Source of the DNA: an uncultured Christensenella sp. | Lineage (GTDB): Bacteria > Bacillota > Clostridia > Christensenellales > UBA3700 | Direction of reading: 5' to 3' | Length of the DNA: 64,000 bases | Assembly (NCBI GenBank): GCA_910584035.1 | Contig: CAJTZR010000001.1 | Span: 1,576-65,575 of the forward strand | Shown: positions 8,565 through 29,636 of the stretch, piece by piece | Numbering within the stretch: position 1 is the stretch's first letter | Layout of the letters: the number at the start of each line of letters is the position of its first letter | Translations under genes and position numbers: made by a program | The notes under the pieces: generated by a model | Told to the model about the DNA's origin: nothing | What the model saw: the letters and a program-made list of their open reading frames with translations, nothing else | The model's database searches: none

Positions 8565-8760
8565 TCGGTATTAAATTAAGTCATCCATATATCCCATAAA
8601 CAAGTTATTTTGTGGGGGGCGATAAACACTTGAAAGGGCATTTTGCAGTAACTGATGTTAATTTAAACTGATATTGCTTGTGTAAGCAAGCAGTATTGTA
8701 CGTGAAATATAATATAGATAATAGTTTTTAAATTTAGCTTATTGATTGAGTTTTTAATAC
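8565..8760 (-). repeat. Intergenic repeat family, copy 1 (inverted relative to the other copies, more diverged)
   Basis: The reverse complement reads ...CAGTTACTGCAAAATGCCCTTTCAAGTGTTTATCGCCCCCCACAAAATAACTTGTTTATGGGATATATGGATGACTT... It aligns with 22570-22650 (CAGCTATTGCAAAATACTCTTTCGGGTGCTTATCGGGGTCCCCACAAAATAACTTTTTTGTGGGGTGTATGGATAACTT). Confidence 0.6.
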
Positions 8761-13844: not shown

Positions 13845-15479
13845 ATGAAAGTATCAAACGACTATAGTATGTATGAATATTTGTTAAATAGGAACAAAGG
13901 GGATAACAGACCTCTTATATCTTATTATAATAATGAAATGTCTACAAATACTTTTTTCAAACAAGTGGATATTGTAGCTAACGCTTTGTCAGCAATAGGA
14001 GTGGGTAAAGGTGATAATATCGCTTTATGTTTGCCAAATATACCTAACGCAATTATCATATTTTATGCGACTAATAAAATTGGTGCGGTGGTAAATTTAA
14101 TACACCCATTAGTTCCCGCAAAAGCTTTAGCTGACATTGTGCAAGAGCATAAAAGCAAAGTAGTTTTTGTATTAGATATGTTTTACAATAAGCATAAGGA
14201 ATTTTTGGAAAAGTCGCAAGTATATAGCGTTGTATGCAGACCATCTGACTATCTAAAAAATGTTTACAAGCTTGGATATAATGTTTATACTGCTAGTAAA
14301 AAACCTAAGTTAAACGGCAATGCAGTTTTTTATAATGACTTTATCAAAAACCAAAGTGTTACTGCTAAAGCGGAAGAGCATTTTGAAGGCATTGGCGATA
14401 ATGTGGCTTGTTATATACATTCTGGCGGTACTACAGGCGTTCCTAAAACGGCGATTATACCAAACAGAGCTATAAACGAGTGCAGTTACAGCATACGTAC
14501 CTTGATAGGTGACGAGGCTCAAAAAGGCGAAAGTATGTTAATGGTATTGCCTATGTTCCACATATTTGGGTTAGGTGTTTGTATGCATTCCACCTTGACA
14601 GCGGGTGCTAGATGCGTGTTAATTCCAGTATTTAAGCCAAAGTCTTTAGCTAGAACTATAAAAAAGCAAAAAGTCACATATATGACGGGCGTTCCGTCAA
14701 TGTATCAAAAGCTTGTAAAATTAAAGAGTTTTGGCGGTAAATATTTGCAAAAAATGAAATCGTGCTATTGTGGTGGCGATAAATTAAAGCAAGAAATCAA
14801 AGAGGATTTTGACGCTATTATGAAAAAATACAATTCCTCTTGTACATTGTGTGAGGGCTATGGCTTGACTGAGGCGGGCGTGTGCAATGTAAATGTGGAG
14901 GAATATTCCAAGAAAGGTTCTGTTGGTAAGCCGTTAGGTGACATAAAAGTTTGTATTGTTGATAGTAATAGAAAACAATTAGCTTATGGCGAGCGTGGTG
15001 AAATTTGTTTGTCTGGTGATAATCTAATGTTAGGATATTACAAGGACGAGGAAACTACAAACAAAGTGCTATTTGAAATGGATGGCGTAAAATGGCTTGC
15101 AACGGGTGACTATGGCTATCTTGAGGAAAGCGGACATTTATTCTTTGTCGACCGCATTAAAAGAATGGTTAAGATTAGCGGAATGAATGTATTCCCTAAT
15201 GAGATAGAATATCTAGTTATGCAAAATGTGGCTGAAATTGACAGATGTTGCGTAATAGATTTAATTAAAAATGAAAAACCATATTTGAAACTTTTTGTAA
15301 CAATGAAAGAGGGGTATCAATATGGTGATGACATTAAACAAAAGATAAAAAATACAATAATCACAAATTTGATGAAATATTCTTTACCAAAAGTGATTGA
15401 GTGTGTAGAACAATTGCCACTATCCGAAATTGGTAAAGTTGATTATAACAAATTAAAACAAAAGGAGCTTGAATTATGA
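13845..15479 (+). CDS. AMP-dependent synthetase/ligase (acyl-CoA ligase-like)
   Basis: IHSGGTTGVPK (AMP-binding motif), GYGLTE and TGDYGY...DRIKR motifs. The ATG at 13845 is preferred, because the track TTG at 13818 abuts a TATAAT (13821-13826). Confidence 0.8.
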   Translation: MKVSNDYSMYEYLLNRNKGDNRPLISYYNNEMSTNTFFKQVDIVANALSAIGVGKGDNIALCLPNIPNAIIIFYATNKIGAVVNLIHPLVPAKALADIVQEHKSKVVFVLDMFYNKHKEFLEKSQVYSVVCRPSDYLKNVYKLGYNVYTASKKPKLNGNAVFYNDFIKNQSVTAKAEEHFEGIGDNVACYIHSGGTTGVPKTAIIPNRAINECSYSIRTLIGDEAQKGESMLMVLPMFHIFGLGVCMHSTLTAGARCVLIPVFKPKSLARTIKKQKVTYMTGVPSMYQKLVKLKSFGGKYLQKMKSCYCGGDKLKQEIKEDFDAIMKKYNSSCTLCEGYGLTEAGVCNVNVEEYSKKGSVGKPLGDIKVCIVDSNRKQLAYGERGEICLSGDNLMLGYYKDEETTNKVLFEMDGVKWLATGDYGYLEESGHLFFVDRIKRMVKISGMNVFPNEIEYLVMQNVAEIDRCCVIDLIKNEKPYLKLFVTMKEGYQYGDDIKQKIKNTIITNLMKYSLPKVIECVEQLPLSEIGKVDYNKLKQKELEL

Positions 15480-17890: not shown

Positions 17891-18007
17891 AGAATATAGT
17901 AGATTGTGTGATTACAAATTTAAACTATATAAAGTAAATTTTAATTAGCTTTAAAATTTTAAAATTGTTAATGTAATGTACTTTTTTACATTATTACAAT
18001 ACTTCTA

Positions 18008-18075
18008 GTTTGAATTAAATAAGTTACTGCAAATGCCTTTTAAGGTGCGTTGCAGTAACTTCCAATAATATGGTT
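18008..18075 (+). repeat. Intergenic repeat family, short variant (copy 4) forming a perfect 12-bp hairpin
   Basis: TTTGAATTAAATAAGTTACTGCAAATGCCTTTTAAGGTGCGTTGCAGTAACTTCCAATAATATGG aligns to the centre and tail of copy 2 (ATTTGAATT...CTATTGCAAAATACTCTTTCGGGTGC...ATAACTTCCAATAATATT) but lacks the CCCCACAAAA hairpin. AAGTTACTGCAA (18021-18032) pairs with TTGCAGTAACTT (18050-18061). Confidence 0.5.
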
Positions 18076-22199: not shown

Positions 22200-22481
22200 A
22201 TGTAAAATTGTCTTTATACAAAAAAAGTTATTTTATTGGGAAGTGATAGGTAGTTTTAAAACCGCACTATCTAGTAACAAAATTTAACTCAAACGAGTAG
22301 TACTTTCATAACAAGAGTATTGCGTTAGTAATATAAAATTTTAATGCAATTAAAATTTGTTTCACATAGTTTATTAAATTATATTGACAATACAAATTAC
22401 AAAATATTTTTTTGAGCTTTATTAATAATACATTAGGTATTGGCTATATAAGGGTTGTAAGTAAATGTAATTACTAAATTA

Positions 22482-22664
22482 TGTGTCGTTTAATTTGAGA
22501 GAACTCAAATTTAAACAAAAGCTAACACTTTTTATGAATAAATCAAGCCGACATTATTTGAATTGCCTTCAGCTATTGCAAAATACTCTTTCGGGTGCTT
22601 ATCGGGGTCCCCACAAAATAACTTTTTTGTGGGGTGTATGGATAACTTCCAATAATATTCAATT
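22482..22664 (+). repeat. Intergenic repeat family, copy 2 (full length)
   Basis: 5' hairpin AATTTGAG-AGAA-CTCAAATT (22492-22511). 3' hairpin CCCCACAAAA-TAACTT-TTTTGTGGGG (22609-22634). 31-nt tail GTGTATGGATAACTTCCAATAATATTCAATT. The 28-mer TCCCCACAAAATAACTTTTTTGTGGGGT is identical in copy 3b. Confidence 0.85.
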
Positions 22665-22814
22665 GTTATAATATACTTTTGGCTAATTAAGTTTACTTTT
22701 TGAAAAAAATATTTTGCATATACAAATAAATATATAAGTTAAAAAATTATATGCATTGAAATGTTTTAGTTAAAAAATATTTTGCATATTTACATTAAGA
22801 TAATTAAGTATAAC

Positions 22815-22843
22815 AAAAAGAGGAACGATTGTTCCTCTTTTTT
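22815..22843. terminator. Bidirectional hairpin terminator downstream of nrdG
   Basis: AAAAAGAGGAAC-GATT-GTTCCTCTTTTTT: an A-run, a 7-bp GC-containing stem and a T-run. Confidence 0.7.
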
Positions 22844-26843: not shown

Positions 26844-27426
26844 TCAATAGTTTAAATAGATAAAAAATTATATAAATATTTATATTAATATATATGTTAT
26901 TTATTATAATATAAGTATTATAGTATTATTTTAATAATGTAGTACAGCCGACAGCTATTCAAAGAATGTAAATATAGTATATTATAAATTATATATAGAA
27001 AAAATAGTTATATTTAGTTTAACATTATATTATTAATATTGTAGATAACCAATAGTTAAAACTTTTAAGCATTACCATATAAATATCTTTAGATATAATA
27101 AAGCTAAATTTTGATTTTAACTATATTTATATATAAATATGATATACCTAATAATGTTAACCAAAAATTTAAAACAAACTATAAATTTTGAATTATTTAC
27201 TAAGTGTATTGCTCAATAAATGACTTGTTAAAATAATTTGATTAATAAAAAAGAGCTAGAACTAAGTTATACCCTTAGGCTACAATTGCCTAACAACGTT
27301 TTTTAACATAGCTCATTTCCAACTTGATTTTTAGATTATATAACATTTTAAGCTATGTAAATGTTTTTGCCAATAATTTTCTCAAAAAATGCGATTAATT
27401 ATAAAAAATTACCTTCAAATATTGTG

Positions 27427-27468
27427 ATTAAAAAACTACTTGTGTTTAAACACAAGTAGTTTTTTAAT
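27427..27468. terminator. Perfect 42-nt palindrome; bidirectional terminator-like hairpin in an ORF-free spacer
   Basis: ATTAAAAAACTACTTGTGTTT|AAACACAAGTAGTTTTTTAAT, verified base by base. The stem is flanked by an A-run and a T-run. Confidence 0.6.
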
Positions 27469-27490
27469 ACATAATTTTAAATTAAACAAG

Positions 27491-27690
27491 GTTAATTTTT
27501 GCGAATATAACTTAAAGCTAATGCTTTTTATGATAAATCAATAAAGTAAAATTCAAATTAAAATCACTAAAATAATTATTTTAGTGTATATTTATGGGCA
27601 ATCAATTTACTATACTCACATACTTTTATTCAAAAATTCACTATAACTTTTTAGTGAGGGTATATGGATAGCTTACGATAATTTTAATTA
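27491..27690 (+). repeat. Intergenic repeat family, copy 3a (decayed, in tandem with 3b)
   Basis: AAAGCTAATGCTTTTTATGATAAATCAA aligns with copy 2 AAAGCTAACACTTTTTATGAATAAATCAA. The hairpin is reduced to CACT-ATAACTTTTT-AGTG. The tail GTATATGGATAGCTTACGATAATTTTAATTA (27660-27690) is near-identical to the 3b tail. Confidence 0.55.
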
Positions 27691-27870
27691 TGAGGTTTTA
27701 ATTTGAGAGAACTCAAATTAAACCAAAGCTACGCTTTTACTTGATAAATCAAGCAGACATTATTTGACTTAACAATTGCTGATGTCAAATGACACTATGT
27801 GTCGCTATCGTAATCCCCACAAAATAACTTTTTTGTGGGGTAAATGTACAGCTTCCGATAATTTTAATTA
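27691..27870 (+). repeat. Intergenic repeat family, copy 3b (full length; last 3 nt are the complement of the transketolase stop codon)
   Basis: 5' hairpin at 27700-27719, 3' hairpin at 27815-27840, tail GTAAATGTACAGCTTCCGATAATTTTAATTA at 27840-27870. The first ~75 nt are nearly identical to copy 2. Confidence 0.85.
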
Positions 27871-28818
27871 TTTTTTCTTGCTAAAAGCCTCTTTTGCCTT
27901 ATCAATGATATCTTGTTCAGTTAAGTGCATTACCTCTGCAAGATAAGCTTCTTTACCAACTTCGCCGTATCTGTCACCAATACCAACTCTTGACATAGGA
28001 ATTAGTACATTGTTTTCCAAAAGTAGGGAAGCTACTTCAGAACCTAAACCGCCAATCAAGTGATGATTTTCGCAAGTTACTACAGCACCAGTTTCACGAC
28101 AAGCTTTTAAAATAGTAGCAGTGTCAAGTGGTTTGTAAGTATGCAAAGCAATAACTTTTGCGTCAATGCCCTCAGCCTTAAGTCGCATTGCAGCAGTTAC
28201 TGCACGATGTACCATAATACCACAAGCAATAATTGTAATATCACCGCCGTCAACGATAACGTTTGCTTTAAATAAATCAATTTTAGAGTTGCTAGAGTAA
28301 ATAGCAGGTGTCTTTTTCCTTTGTAATCTAATATACATTGGCTTATCGCACTTTAGTATTTGAGGGAATAATTTATCTAGGCAAACACAATCGCAAGGCT
28401 CAACAACTACCATATCTGGAACTTGTGTCATCAATGCAACGTCCTCAAAACTCATATGAGTACCGCCATTAATTTGTGCCATAATACCAGGGTCAGTACC
28501 TACAATTTTAACATTTTGTTTTGTGTAACCAACGCTTACTGCGATTTGGTCGTAACATCTTCTTGTAGCAAAAGGGCTGAAAGAAGAGCAGAATGGCACT
28601 TTGCCACAGCTTGCAAGACCAGCAGCTACGCCAATCATATTACTTTCCGCAATACCGCAGTTGATAAAACGTCTTGGGTAAGCATCTTTAAATTTGCCAG
28701 TACCTATGCAGTTCATAAGGTCTGCCTCAAGTACAACTATTCTTCTGTCAAATTTAGAGTATTTAATCAAATTGTCAACATAAACTTGACGCATTTCTTT
28801 ATTATGTAAATCGCTCAT
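27868..28818 (-). CDS. Transketolase, C-terminal (pyrimidine-binding) subunit
   Basis: FINCGIAESNMIGVAAGLA and the GGLGS region. The start at 28818 gives an ATGA overlap with the upstream subunit and has RBS GGGGAGGT. Confidence 0.9.
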   Translation of the reverse strand: MSDLHNKEMRQVYVDNLIKYSKFDRRIVVLEADLMNCIGTGKFKDAYPRRFINCGIAESNMIGVAAGLASCGKVPFCSSFSPFATRRCYDQIAVSVGYTKQNVKIVGTDPGIMAQINGGTHMSFEDVALMTQVPDMVVVEPCDCVCLDKLFPQILKCDKPMYIRLQRKKTPAIYSSNSKIDLFKANVIVDGGDITIIACGIMVHRAVTAAMRLKAEGIDAKVIALHTYKPLDTATILKACRETGAVVTCENHHLIGGLGSEVASLLLENNVLIPMSRVGIGDRYGEVGKEAYLAEVMHLTEQDIIDKAKEAFSKKK

Positions 28819-29636
28819 TTTAATACCTCCCCAGTACATTCATTGGCAAGCATTTCAGCAGTAAAGCTAACACTATGTGATTTGTAGTGTCCTTCACAAC
28901 ATTTAACGCCTTTACCTTTGATAGTGTTAAGGACAATAGCGGTTGGTGTCCTAGATGCACGACATTTTGTAACAACCTCAACTATTTTCTCAATGTCGTG
29001 ACCATCAATAGAATATACTTTGTAACCAAATGCACGTAGTTTAGATTCAAAAGGCTCAACCTTACATACATCTTCAGTCATACCATCAATTTGCATTCTG
29101 TTATTATCAATAATTGCAGTAAAGTTAGATAAATGTCTAGATGAGGCAAGCATAAGTGCTTCCCAAACTTGACCTTCTTGGCTTTCACCATCGCCAACAA
29201 TTGCAAAAGTGTGGTAATTTTTCTTATCAATTCTTCCAGCAATAGCCATACCTACAGCGGCAGAAATTCCTTGACCTAATGAACCTGCTGTAAAATCTAC
29301 ACCAGTTACTTTTAACATATCTGCGTGTGATGGAAGAGTTGTGCCGTTTTGGTTTAATGTAAGCAATAAGCTTTTGTCAAAATATCCTCTTGCTGCAAGG
29401 GTAGCATATAAACCTGGTGCAGCGTGACCTTTAGATAGCACAATTCTATCTCTGTTTGGATTTTTTGGGTCTTCTGGGTCAATGTTAGTGCTATGAAAAT
29501 ATAACACAGTAAGCAACTCAATTATGCTTGATGAGCCACCAATATGACCAACACCAAAATTAGCAATACACTCAATGCACATTTTACGAATTAAATCTGC
29601 TGTTTCGTATAGTTTTTCGATAGTGTTTTGTTCCAT
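28815..29636 (-). CDS. Transketolase, N-terminal (TPP-binding) subunit
   Basis: 273 aa. GHIGGSSS, SKGHAAPGLYA and the GDGESQEGQVWEA TPP motif. Confidence 0.9.
   Translation of the reverse strand: MEQNTIEKLYETADLIRKMCIECIANFGVGHIGGSSSIIELLTVLYFHSTNIDPEDPKNPNRDRIVLSKGHAAPGLYATLAARGYFDKSLLLTLNQNGTTLPSHADMLKVTGVDFTAGSLGQGISAAVGMAIAGRIDKKNYHTFAIVGDGESQEGQVWEALMLASSRHLSNFTAIIDNNRMQIDGMTEDVCKVEPFESKLRAFGYKVYSIDGHDIEKIVEVVTKCRASRTPTAIVLNTIKGKGVKCCEGHYKSHSVSFTAEMLANECTGEVLK

What the first reader, a model, noticed from the sequence alone, without database searches (positions are those of the whole stretch)
27491..27870. Tandem pair of a ~180-200-nt non-coding element with hairpins near both ends, ending exactly on the transketolase stop codon (type locus of a 4-locus repeat family)
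On the + strand, 27691-27870 has four parts. First, a 5' hairpin AATTTGAG-AGAA-CTCAAATT (27700-27719). Second, a body of about 95 nt. Third, a 3' hairpin CCCCACAAAA-TAACTT-TTTTGTGGGG (27815-27840). Fourth, a 31-nt tail GTAAATGTACAGCTTCCGATAATTTTAATTA. Directly upstream, 27491-27690 is a decayed head-to-tail copy whose tail is GTATATGGATAGCTTACGATAATTTTAATTA. In the decayed copy the hairpin survives as CACT-ATAACTTTTT-AGTG. Relative to CAC-A...T-GTG it carries a paired change, CAC-T...A-GTG, which hints at selection for structure. The last three bases of the element (27868-27870) are the complement of the TAA stop of the convergent transketolase C-subunit gene. If that operon only terminates at the 42-nt palindrome at 27427-27468, its transcript would carry both copies in antisense. 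Related copies lie at 22482-22664, 8565-8760 (inverted) and 18008-18075 (mini). No reading frame is conserved between copies. I cannot match the element to a known RNA family from memory. It could be a hairpin-ended non-autonomous element of the IS200/IS605 (PATE) kind, since I see no terminal inverted repeats and no obvious target duplication. It could be a REP/BOX/RUP-like intergenic repeat. It could also be a family of small or 3'-UTR RNAs.
Basis: seen in the sequence. Interest (0 to 1): 0.6.

Follow-up and report, generated by a model that had tools for sequence, protein, structure and literature searches.

The report
Mobile non-coding repeat with dif-like ends
The tandem pair downstream of transketolase belongs to a genus-specific family of over 100 small, folded, non-coding mobile DNA units whose ends form a 28-bp site resembling the chromosome-dimer resolution site dif, so they probably spread by borrowing a host site-specific recombinase rather than a transposase.

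Summary
The family occurs in 6 of 9 species of the genus and in none of 34 other genera. Sister species carry empty sites, including the transketolase site, so the units are or recently were mobile. Units are modular: about 140 or 175 nt, two head types and one common tail. They fold strongly, and a closing helix around three hairpins shows compensatory changes.

Every head-to-tail junction reads tail RCTTCCGATAA, then TATAAA, then head TTATGTGTCGT or CTATAGGAAGT. This 11-6-11 dyad site matches the S. aureus dif at 22 of 28 positions. I found no target duplication and no autonomous parent. TnpB and IS110 transposases are absent, and the IS200 copies in the genus have unrelated hairpins. There is no Rfam hit and no strand bias.

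Best reading: miniature cassette-like elements moved by conservative site-specific recombination. The enzyme is a host Xer-type recombinase or a small serine recombinase whose gene carries 0 to at least 3 units directly upstream in relatives. The enzyme is inferred, not shown.

The parts
27427..27468 (.). Host bidirectional terminator palindrome; not part of the element
   Evidence: Terminator-like site. The same hairpin is conserved in the empty allele of sister species G007, where it lies 47 nt from the tkt stop.
27470..27491 (+). Left junction of the array: CATAA | TTTTAA | ATTAAACAAGG (flank arm, centre hexamer, decayed head arm)
   Evidence: Read. It carries the same TTTTAA hexamer as the other two junctions of this locus.
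27481..27681 (+). Unit a: decayed copy, from head remnant to tail arm GCTTACGATAA (27671-27681)
   Evidence: nhmmer finds only its tail. Alignment to the family consensus was done by eye.
27671..27698 (+). Internal 28-bp head-to-tail junction GCTTACGATAA-TTTTAA-TTATGAGGTTT
   Evidence: 11-6-11 architecture in all arrays. It matches dif panel members at 16-17 of 28 positions in this decayed instance.
27688..27861 (+). Unit b: intact long-type unit (174 nt, head type 1), from head arm TTATGAGGTTT to tail arm GCTTCCGATAA
   Evidence: nhmmer score 162.5 bits. Fold z = -5.7 on the + strand and -6.4 on the - strand.
27696..27723 (+). 5' hairpin (helix 2), TTTTAATTTGAG-AGAA-CTCAAATTAAA
   Evidence: 91-94% of cells are paired across copies.
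27725..27753 (+). Two short hairpins: AAAGC-TAC-GCTTT and CTTGA-TAAA-TCAAG (helices 3 and 4)
27762..27803 (+). Central stems: ATTTGAC/GTCAAAT, and GACAC-TAT-GTGTC. In other copies the latter hairpin is replaced by unrelated hairpins (ACCC-TTTC-GGGT, GTGGC-TTC-GCCAC).
27815..27840 (+). 3' hairpin CCCCACAAAA-TAACTT-TTTTGTGGGG. Present only in long (about 175-nt) units and not followed by a T-run on either strand.
27851..27878 (+). Right junction GCTTCCGATAA | TTTTAA | TTATTTTTTCT. The right arm is target DNA and contains the complement of the tkt stop codon (27868-27870).
27868..28839 (-). Transketolase C-terminal subunit gene (323 aa); flanking host gene
   Evidence: Orthologues occur in all 9 genomes of the genus.
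22479..22655 (+). Second long-type unit in the window (177 nt, head type 1)
17925..18068 (+). Short unit of head type 2 (144 nt).
8571..8693 (-). Partial, diverged copy (model positions 40-164)

Best explanation
**What it is.** The pair is two head-to-tail units of a genus-specific family of non-autonomous, non-coding, strongly folded DNA elements. Units are about 140 or 175 nt.

**Unit layout.**
- Each unit begins with a head arm, TTATGTGTCGT or CTATAGGAAGT.
- Each unit ends with a tail arm, RCTTCCGATAA.
- Wherever a tail meets a head, the two arms flank the hexamer TATAAA.
- The result is a 28-bp, 11-6-11, partly dyad-symmetric site that looks like a Firmicutes dif site: a good XerC-type arm, an AT-rich centre, and TTATG(T) as the inner part of the second arm.

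**Proposed mechanism.**
1. Units move by conservative site-specific recombination.
2. Recombination between two directly repeated junctions releases a circle carrying one complete site.
3. The circle re-integrates either at an existing junction, which extends a head-to-tail array, or at AT-rich pseudo-sites of the form AA-TAT^AAA-TT in intergenic DNA.
4. No target duplication results.
5. The enzyme acts in trans and is chromosomal. Most likely it is a Xer-type tyrosine recombinase. The alternative is the conserved 202-203-aa serine recombinase.

**Shown here.**
- Copy number.
- Restriction to one genus.
- Insertion polymorphism between sister species.
- Modular anatomy.
- Junction architecture and its similarity to dif.
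- Absence of a shared target duplication.
- Conservation of the fold.

**Inferred, not shown.**
- The circular intermediate.
- The identity of the recombinase.
- Any role of the fold (accessory architecture, single-stranded DNA or RNA).
For: **Abundance and distribution.**
- 116 hits at about 89 loci, all intergenic, always head-to-tail within arrays.
- 6 of 9 species of the genus and 0 of 34 other genera.
- By exact pattern, only two mouse-gut MAGs among the genome contigs and three metagenome contigs carry it.

**Mobility.**
- Filled in G000 but empty in sister G007 at the tkt site, C43:3807, C22:6357 and C5:22455.
- Filled in G007 but empty in G000 at C18.
- Orthologous arrays differ in unit number and type.

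**Junction.**
- 69 anchored units show an invariant tail, 6 nt, then head.
- ACTTCCGATAA-TATAAA-TTATGTGTCGT matches the S. aureus dif at 22/28.
- Its left arm matches the predicted Solibacter dif arm at 11/11. dif sequences are from PMC3025954.
- 28-mers within 8 mismatches of a 4-dif panel number 25 in 3.67 M background positions and 12 in about 50 k element positions.

**No target duplication.**
- Deviations of the left and right hexamers are not shared. Mean Hamming distance is 1.97 against 2.12 permuted, 498 of 5000 permutations at or below observed.
- The conserved halves are AAA next to the head and TAT next to the tail, so the boundary lies inside the hexamer.

**No transposase parent.**
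- No TnpB and no IS110.
- The IS200 ends are unrelated.
- No multi-copy ORFs.

**Recombinases available.**
- XerS-like and XerC/D-like genes.
- A small serine recombinase in all six element-bearing genomes.
- 0, 0, 1, 2 and at least 3 units sit directly upstream of that gene in G001, G006, L096, G003 and G008.
Against: - Targets outside arrays share only AA-TAT/AAA-TT with the junction. They have no recognisable recombinase arms, which is unusual for Xer reactions. Known IMEX integrate at the true dif, not at about 90 dispersed sites.
- The candidate host dif (C72:9016-9043) is unoccupied.
- At site B the centre of the empty allele (TGCAAT) appears in neither junction.
- The mid-hexamer boundary fits a 2-bp serine-recombinase crossover better than a 6-8-bp tyrosine one.
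- dif-likeness could be convergence among AT-rich dyad sites.
- Recombinase adjacency is weak evidence. A tyrosine recombinase gene also sits next to units on G000 C88. The serine-recombinase array may stem from a single ancestral insertion.
- Fisher p for serine recombinase versus element presence is only 0.08.
- Type-2 units have 11-bp inverted arms, which a DDE-type MITE would also have.
- No circles, reads or biochemistry were examined.
Confidence: 0.5

Rival explanations
1. The mechanism is site-specific recombination, but the enzyme is the conserved small serine recombinase (resolvase/invertase type, 202-203 aa). Its own site lies just upstream of its gene and acts as a primary docking site, somewhat like attI next to intI. 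This is a sub-case of the best explanation with a different enzyme.
For: - The gene is present in all six element-bearing genomes. The G000 and G003 proteins are 63% identical.
- The site directly 5' of the gene holds 0 (G001, G006), 1 (L096), 2 (G003) or at least 3 (G008) units.
- The empty G001 site GTGATAAAAT-TATAAA-TATGTACAAC resembles a unit junction.
- The boundary maps to the middle of the hexamer, as expected for a 2-bp central crossover.
- From my own knowledge: Mpi-type serine invertases act on many dispersed sites. The NCBIfam Mpi model gives a weak full-length match.
Against: - Element-free G006 also has the gene.
- In G000 and G007, the genomes richest in copies, the upstream site is diverged (TACACA centre) and unoccupied.
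- G003, G008 and L096 are close relatives, so the occupied site may reflect a single event.
- This model gives no explanation for the dif-like arm ACTTCC.
Confidence: 0.2
2. It is a classical MITE. An unseen DDE transposase (lost, or missing from the MAGs) moves it by cut-and-paste. The transposase recognises roughly 11-bp terminal inverted repeats (YTATNGGAAGY) and inserts into TATAAA targets with a 6-bp duplication.
For: - Type-2 units have inverted arms matching at 8 of 11 positions.
- TATAAA-like hexamers flank units on both sides.
- At this locus all three junctions share TTTTAA.
- MAGs often lose IS copies.
Against: - Type-1 heads match the tail arm at only 6 of 11 positions.
- Left and right hexamer deviations are not shared.
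- The clean empty sites show no duplicated target.
- No transposase with such ends was seen. The nine genomes were tested only for Y1, TnpB and IS110 families, and G000 alone was checked for multi-copy ORFs.
- Repeated, exact insertion next to resident copies would need recognition beyond 6 bp.
Confidence: 0.15
3. It is an IS200/IS605-type PATE mobilised as single-stranded DNA by a Y1 (HUH) transposase.
For: - No target duplication and hairpins near both ends.
- Watson-Crick compensation without G-U excess.
- Y1 transposase genes or pseudogenes occur in 5 of 9 genomes, including a decayed one in G000.
Against: - The end hairpins are unrelated to each other and to the IS200 hairpins.
- Short units lack the 3' hairpin.
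- G001 and G002 have the element but no Y1 gene, while G006 has Y1 but no element.
- There is no orientation bias: 23 against 30 relative to the local gene-strand majority, and 36 of 79 relative to GC skew.
Confidence: 0.05
4. The units are primarily functional RNA genes or UTR modules (small RNAs, 3'-end stabilisers or outward promoters), and their spread is secondary.
For: - Strong folds on both strands.
- A long-range closing helix with compensatory changes, GTGTCG/CGACAC to GTGTTG/CAACAC, GTATCG/CGATAC and GTGCCG/(T)GGCAC.
- Enrichment in convergent spacers, 31% against 12% (p = 3e-5).
- The junction carries -10-like TATAAA.
Against: - No Rfam match.
- G-U equals A-C in helices (68 against 88).
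- Both orientations occur relative to neighbouring genes.
- The units contain no terminator-like hairpin followed by a T-run.
- The loop of the 5' hairpin is sometimes inverted (AGAA against TTCT), as in DNA palindromes.
- Expression could not be tested.
Confidence: 0.1

Closest known systems
IMEX (integrative mobile elements exploiting Xer: CTX-phi, VGJ-phi, TLC-phi, the gonococcal genetic island, EludIMEX-1)
   Same: - The element carries a dif-like site with a good XerC-type arm and centre and a degenerate second arm.
- It encodes no recombinase of its own.
- It integrates without target duplication.
- It forms head-to-tail arrays with one site per junction.

Review: PMC5357621, read.
   Different: - IMEX are kilobase-sized and coding, and integrate at the single chromosomal dif.
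- These units are 140-175 nt, non-coding, present at about 90 dispersed intergenic loci, and not seen at the candidate host dif.
- Xer dependence is untested here.
pdif modules of Acinetobacter plasmids
   Same: Multiple dif-like 28-bp sites bound discrete modules, and the arrangement of modules varies between relatives (papers listed).
   Different: - pdif modules are gene-carrying, plasmid-borne and bounded by sites in alternating orientation.
- Here the sites are direct repeats, chromosomal, and the modules are non-coding.
bcr1 and other Bacillus cereus-group repeats; pneumococcal BOX, RUP and SPRITE; Neisseria Correia elements (from my own knowledge)
   Same: - Lineage-restricted, high-copy, roughly 100-200-nt intergenic repeats.
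- Predicted stable folds.
- Modular build (BOX A-B-C).
- Non-autonomous.
- Insertion polymorphism.
   Different: - Those with a known mechanism have terminal inverted repeats and target duplications (TA for RUP and Correia, TTTAT for bcr1) and a plausible IS parent.
- This family has a dif-like junction, no duplication and no IS parent.
- There is no sequence similarity to any of them.
Integron cassettes (attC x attI next to intI)
   Same: - Promoterless small circular units, each with one recombination site.
- They accumulate in a directional array next to a recombinase gene. Here the array sits upstream of the serine recombinase gene in G003, G008 and L096.
- Structure rather than sequence is conserved within the unit.
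   Different: - Cassettes carry genes, attC is a folded bottom-strand site, and IntI is a tyrosine recombinase.
- Here most units lie away from the recombinase gene and are non-coding.
IS200/IS605 PATEs and REP/RAYT systems
   Same: No duplication, hairpins, no classical inverted repeats (type 1), high copy number.
   Different: Defining features fail: non-matching end hairpins, no cognate Y1 enzyme, no orientation bias (see membership test).

Membership tests
IS200/IS605-derived PATE | Similar subterminal hairpins at the left and right ends, bound by one TnpA | tested here: not met
   The 5' hairpin AATTTGAG/CTCAAATT and the 3' hairpin CCCCACAAAA/TTTTGTGGGG are unrelated. The 140-nt units lack the 3' hairpin.
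IS200/IS605-derived PATE | A cognate Y1 transposase element with the same ends in the genome or lineage | tested here: not met
   The IS200 in G003 has CCACTAGA/TCTAGTGG-type hairpins. Y1 presence does not track the element. No element hit flanks any Y1 gene, apart from one about 850 nt from the G000 pseudogene.
IS200/IS605-derived PATE | Orientation bias relative to replication (lagging-strand template) | tested here: not met
   23 same against 30 opposite relative to the local gene-strand majority. 36 of 79 lie on the G-rich strand.
Classical MITE (DDE transposase) | Terminal inverted repeats | tested here: inconclusive
   Type-2 units match at 8 of 11 positions (CTATAGGAAGT against TTATCGGAAGC). 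Type-1 units match at 6 of 11.
Classical MITE (DDE transposase) | Copy-specific target-site duplication | tested here: not met
   For solitary units the mean Hamming distance between left and right hexamers is 1.97 against 2.12 permuted (498 of 5000 permutations at or below observed). Deviations are not shared. The clean empty/filled pairs show no duplication.
Classical MITE (DDE transposase) | Autonomous parent IS with the same ends | tested here: not met
   No multi-copy ORF families resembling transposases in G000. No gene lies between a head and a tail. MAG incompleteness limits this test.
REP/BIME with RAYT | 20-40-nt palindromes with a conserved 5' tetranucleotide, plus a single RAYT gene flanked by REPs | tested here: not met
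   Units are 140-175 nt and composite. The Y1 genes are ordinary IS200 copies or pseudogenes without flanking units.
IMEX / dif-module (Xer-dependent element) | A 28-bp 11-6-11 site with a XerC-type arm and a dif-like centre | tested here: met
   22/28 to the S. aureus dif, split 10/11, 5/6 and 7/11. The left arm is identical to the predicted Solibacter dif arm. Background rate is 6.8e-6 per position for 8 or fewer mismatches.
IMEX / dif-module (Xer-dependent element) | Integration at the host dif site | tested here: not met
   Copies lie at about 89 dispersed loci. The candidate host dif (C72:9016-9043, conserved in G007) carries no unit. The identity of the true dif is itself unproven.
IMEX / dif-module (Xer-dependent element) | Host Xer recombinase present and catalysing the reaction | not testable with these tools
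   XerS-like (354 aa) and XerC/D-like (295 aa) genes exist. Catalysis cannot be tested here.
Serine-recombinase site system (res/hix-like) | Recombinase gene next to its site, and co-occurrence with the element | tested here: inconclusive
   The gene is in 6 of 6 element-bearing genomes and 1 of 3 element-free genomes (Fisher p = 0.08). A variable array lies directly upstream in G003, G008 and L096, with empty sites in G001 and G006. The G000 and G007 sites are diverged and empty.
Any Rfam RNA family | A covariance-model match | tested here: not met
   No hit at gathering thresholds in the whole window. Only sub-threshold noise at E up to 10 in 27350-27950.

The most novel reading that the evidence does not exclude
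These are 'miniature IMEX': non-coding, 140-175-nt circularisable cassettes. They have colonised about 90 chromosomal sites by hijacking a housekeeping site-specific recombinase, either Xer or a conserved small serine recombinase with a docking site next to its gene. Their conserved multi-helix fold would serve as the accessory architecture that licenses recombination away from the true dif. This would be a transposase-free route to a genome-wide repeat family.
Probability: 0.3. Interest if true: 0.75.

Novelty: new variant of a known kind. Interest (0 to 1): 0.5.

Why it matters
High-copy intergenic repeats are common, but for most the mobilising enzyme is unknown.

- **Testable mechanism.** The unit boundary is itself a dif-like recombination site and no transposase parent is detectable. 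That points to spread by a host recombinase through circular intermediates. If correct, Xer exploitation, known from phages, genomic islands and plasmid modules, would extend to miniature non-coding chromosomal repeats. It would also explain head-to-tail arrays without invoking replication slippage.
- **Practical consequences.**
  - The family breaks assemblies of this uncultured mouse-gut lineage, because many copies sit at contig ends.
  - It produces spurious small ORFs.
  - It moves host terminators away from stop codons. Here the tkt terminator is displaced by about 400 nt.
- **If the recombinase idea fails.** The finding is an ordinary new lineage-specific repeat family.

Tried and rejected
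1. **Rfam.** Gathering thresholds over the whole window and E up to 10 on the locus gave nothing.
2. **Exact-protein look-up of the transketolase subunit** to find strain-level empty sites gave no record.
4. **Viral contigs.** Neither hairpin pattern occurs, so there is no sign of a phage-borne parent.
5. **Metagenome contigs.** Three hits, all more distant congeners and none autonomous.
6. **Transposases.**
   - TnpB absent.
   - IS110 absent.
   - Y1 present but unrelated.
   - No multi-copy ORFs. A roughly 30-copy contig-end repeat turned out to be a conserved leader of large surface-protein genes, not an IS.
7. **RNAalifold on 24 full copies** recovered only the 5' hairpin, because the central module has non-homologous variants. 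Helices were therefore specified by hand.
8. **Strand assignment from G-U against A-C.** No asymmetry.
9. **Replication-strand bias.** None.
10. **Canonical host dif.**
    - No match within 1 mismatch of the general consensus.
    - The G007 site with a good XerD-type arm is the right junction of a unit. Its G000 orthologue is a decayed unit.
    - A single-copy candidate was found on C72, but the contig is too short for a skew test.
11. **difSL-like site next to the XerS-like gene.** A conserved upstream motif exists, but no second arm is conserved.
12. **Earlier notes by sequence.** No look-alikes.
Full report
**1. Observation**

- An intact unit carries a 5' hairpin at 27696-27723 and a 3' hairpin at 27815-27840.
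- A decayed head-to-tail copy precedes it.
- The array abuts the convergent transketolase C-subunit gene at 27868-28839.
- Both strands of the intact unit fold far better than dinucleotide shuffles, at -50.2 and -54.5 kcal/mol with z = -5.7 and -6.4.
- Related copies in the window were recovered by the repeat finder.

**2. Size and distribution of the family**

The window lies in a 1.87-Mb, 31% GC, 151-contig genome.
- BLASTN finds 76 matches. Two rounds of nhmmer find 116 matches grouped into about 89 loci, or 0.78% of the genome. Many sit at contig ends.
- All loci lie outside ORFs of at least 70 codons, apart from two overlaps with ORFs that are probably spurious.
- Within a locus, units are always head-to-tail.
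- Among 61 related genomes the element occurs in 6 of 9 species of the same genus and in none of 34 other genera.
- An exact-pattern scan of 185,579 species genomes found it only in two mouse-gut MAGs labelled 'uncultured Christensenella sp.'.
- Three metagenome contigs from further congeners carry it. Viral contigs do not.
- Rfam has no match.

**3. Mobility**

The closest sister species, G007, has transketolase 98% identical to G000.
- At the tkt site G007 has an empty allele. The terminator palindrome sits 47 nt from the tkt stop, against about 400 nt in the window.
- A chimeric flank query located more orthologous sites.
  - G000 C43:3807-3969 is a clean 176-nt insertion relative to G007.
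  - C22:6357 and C5:22455 are also empty in G007.
- Conversely, a two-unit array in G007 (L085) is absent from G000 C18.
- Arrays at shared loci differ in the number and type of units.

The family therefore is, or recently was, mobile, and its arrays are dynamic.

**4. Anatomy**

Units are modular.
- Anchoring heads and tails in all held sequence gave 151 heads: 101 of type 1 (TTATGTGTCGT...) and 50 of type 2 (CTATAGGAAGT...).
- All units share one tail arm, RCTTCCGATAA.
- Unit lengths are bimodal at about 140 nt and about 175 nt. The long form has the CCCCACAAAA hairpin.
- The central hairpin exists as at least three unrelated sequence variants at the same place.
- The 5' domain is a closing helix (GTGTCG with CGACAC) around three hairpins.
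  - On 63 diverse copies, 88% of cells pair, against 19-55% for slid controls.
  - 5 of 6 pairs of the closing helix show changes on both sides: GTGTTG/CAACAC, GTATCG/CGATAC and GTGCCG/(T)GGCAC.
  - Cells with double changes exceed all but 1 of 500 shuffles. The 24 full-length copies give a similar result.
- G-U and A-C mismatches are equally frequent, 42 against 57 and 68 against 88. No strand stands out as an RNA.

**5. Context**

- Orientation relative to flanking genes is nearly random.
- Orientation shows no bias relative to the local gene-strand majority (23 against 30) or GC skew (36 of 79).
- Element-bearing spacers are convergent in 31% of cases, against 12% genome-wide (p = 3e-5). 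This is as expected if insertions into promoters are selected against.
- No terminator-like hairpin followed by a T-run lies inside the units.

**6. The junction**

In every array the tail arm is followed by exactly six bases, consensus TATAAA, and then a head arm.
- The 28-mer ACTTCCGATAA-TATAAA-TTATGTGTCGT has the 11-6-11 layout of a dif site.
- The type-2 junction GCTTCCGATAA-TATAAA-CTATAGGAAGT is nearly dyad-symmetric.
- I checked dif sequences in the literature. B. subtilis ACTTCCTAGAATATATATTATGTAAACT, S. aureus ACTTCCTATAATATATATTATGTAAACT and predicted Solibacter ACTTCCGATAACGAATATTATGTCAACT are given in PMC3025954 and its supplement.
- The junction matches the S. aureus dif at 22 of 28 positions: left arm 10/11, centre 5/6, right arm 7/11. 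Its left arm equals the Solibacter arm.
- Genome-wide, 28-mers within 8 mismatches of a four-dif panel occur 25 times in 3.67 million background positions and 12 times in about 50,000 element positions.
- I estimate the chance that a random 180-nt AT-rich element has such a match, and has it at its boundary, at about 1e-4.
- A good first arm and centre with a degenerate second arm is what reviews describe for the sites of IMEX such as TLC-phi and the gonococcal island (PMC5357621).

**7. Target and crossover**

- Where a unit meets flank, the hexamer half next to the unit is conserved.
  - AAA before heads: 77-96%.
  - TAT after tails: 84-98%.
- The outer half and the flank arms are only AT-rich, with AA before the hexamer and T-rich sequence after it.
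- Left and right hexamers of the same unit do not share their deviations.
- The clean empty/filled pairs show no duplicated target.
- So insertion is into AA-TAT^AAA-TT-like sites without duplication, and each insertion recreates junction-like sequence at both ends. This would favour further insertion there and explain the arrays.
- At the window locus all three junctions share the deviant hexamer TTTTAA.

**8. Who does it**

*Excluded or unsupported.*
- TnpB is absent and IS110 transposase is absent.
- Y1 transposase genes occur in 5 of 9 genomes. They belong to ordinary IS200 copies with unrelated hairpins, or are pseudogenes, and they do not track the element.
- No multi-copy ORFs exist in G000.

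*Tyrosine recombinases.*
- A XerS-like 354-aa protein in 7 of 9 genomes.
- A XerC/D-like 295-aa protein.
- Two integrase-like groups. One copy lies 189 nt from units on G000 C88.

*Small serine recombinase.*
- A resolvase/invertase-type protein of 202-203 aa is present in all six element-bearing genomes and in one element-free genome (Fisher p = 0.08).
- The G000 and G003 proteins are 63% identical.
- The site immediately upstream of its start codon varies between relatives:
  - Empty in G001 (GTGATAAAAT-TATAAA-TATGTACAAC) and in G006.
  - One unit in metagenome contig L096.
  - Two units in G003.
  - At least three units in G008.
- In G000 and G007 the corresponding site is diverged and empty.

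*Candidate host dif.*
- ACTTGCTACAATTTAAATTATGTTACTT is single-copy on G000 C72 and conserved in G007. It is unoccupied.

**9. Interpretation**

The best-supported reading is a non-autonomous, cassette-like element moved by conservative site-specific recombination at its 28-bp junction, through a circular intermediate, using a chromosomal recombinase.
- I put about 0.5 on this class of mechanism.
- A Xer-type enzyme is somewhat more likely than the serine recombinase because of the specific dif-like arm.
- The mid-hexamer boundary and the array next to the serine recombinase gene keep the latter alive.
- A classical MITE with an unseen DDE transposase, an IS200-type PATE, and an RNA-first role are less likely, for the reasons given under the rival explanations.

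No step of the mechanism was observed directly.

**10. Verdict**

- The PATE idea is rejected. The generic 'intergenic repeat' idea is right.
- The new element is the dif-like junction.
- It is a new, lineage-restricted repeat family with an unusual and testable mobilisation hypothesis: moderately interesting now, and clearly interesting if the recombinase dependence is shown.

Noticed in passing
L133:1150-2152 (G003), L146:1910-2560 (G008), L096:4600-5465 (metagenome contig), L145 and L144 (G001, G006): A conserved 202-203-aa resolvase/invertase-type serine recombinase gene carries, 20 nt upstream of its start, a site that holds 0, 0, 1, 2 or at least 3 repeat units in five related genomes. 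This is an integron-like picture that deserves its own study.
   Followed up: partly
G000 C72:9016-9043 (outside the window); G007 C1:303356-303382 (L139): A single-copy 28-mer ACTTGCTACAATTTAAATTATGTTACTT (on the reverse strand in C72) matches the B. subtilis and S. aureus dif at 21/28 and is conserved in the sister species. It is a candidate true dif of the genus.
   Followed up: partly
G000 C29 about 14,580-14,640 and orthologues (L104, L108, L103, L110, L111, L115): A conserved motif TTTTGTTTTGCGAAAAGTATTGAA lies about 55 nt upstream of the XerS-like recombinase gene in six species. Its left part resembles the difSL left arm (TTTCCGAAAA), but no second arm is conserved. It could be a promoter or operator, or an atypical dif.
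   Followed up: partly
G000 contig ends, e.g. C1:1-85, C122:1534-2147, C119:4276-4870 (outside the window): A repeat of about 30 copies (...TACATAGATATATGTATTCTATGTA...AATAGGAGGTTTTTGCT-ATG) forms the conserved leader or promoter region of a paralogous family of very large secreted proteins with dockerin-like C-termini. It breaks the assembly but is not an IS.
   Followed up: partly
G000 C1:87412-87759 (window coordinate about 85,800, outside the window): A decayed IS200-type Y1 transposase pseudogene (7 stop codons) lies about 850 nt from a repeat unit. Intact copies exist in G003 and G008.
   Followed up: partly
G000 C79:3756-3952, C79:7299-7531, C23:2624-2833, C88:130-170: A long perfect palindrome AAAATGTTCATCAAWTATATWTTGATGAACATTTT recurs next to integrase-like tyrosine recombinase genes. 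It may be a terminator or their recombination site.
   Followed up: no
G000 C88:300-400: Tandem G+C-rich hairpins (CCCCAAAAAGTCTATCGGACTTTTCGGGGACCCC...) lie downstream of the C88 tyrosine recombinase gene. They may be another small repeat family, with a CCCC/GGGG-based stem like the 3' hairpin of the long units.
   Followed up: no
window 22706-22822: Two or three copies of AAATATTTTGCATAT-containing AT-rich sequence lie between the second unit and a terminator (22815-22843), within a roughly 1-kb stretch free of ORFs.
   Followed up: no
short-type units, e.g. L133:1480-1530: The tail of short units reads GCTTGACTACAGCTTCCGATAATATAAAAT. That is a TTGACT box 16-17 nt upstream of a TAAAAT/TATAAA box, a possible outward-facing promoter that would drive the downstream gene or the next unit.
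   Followed up: no
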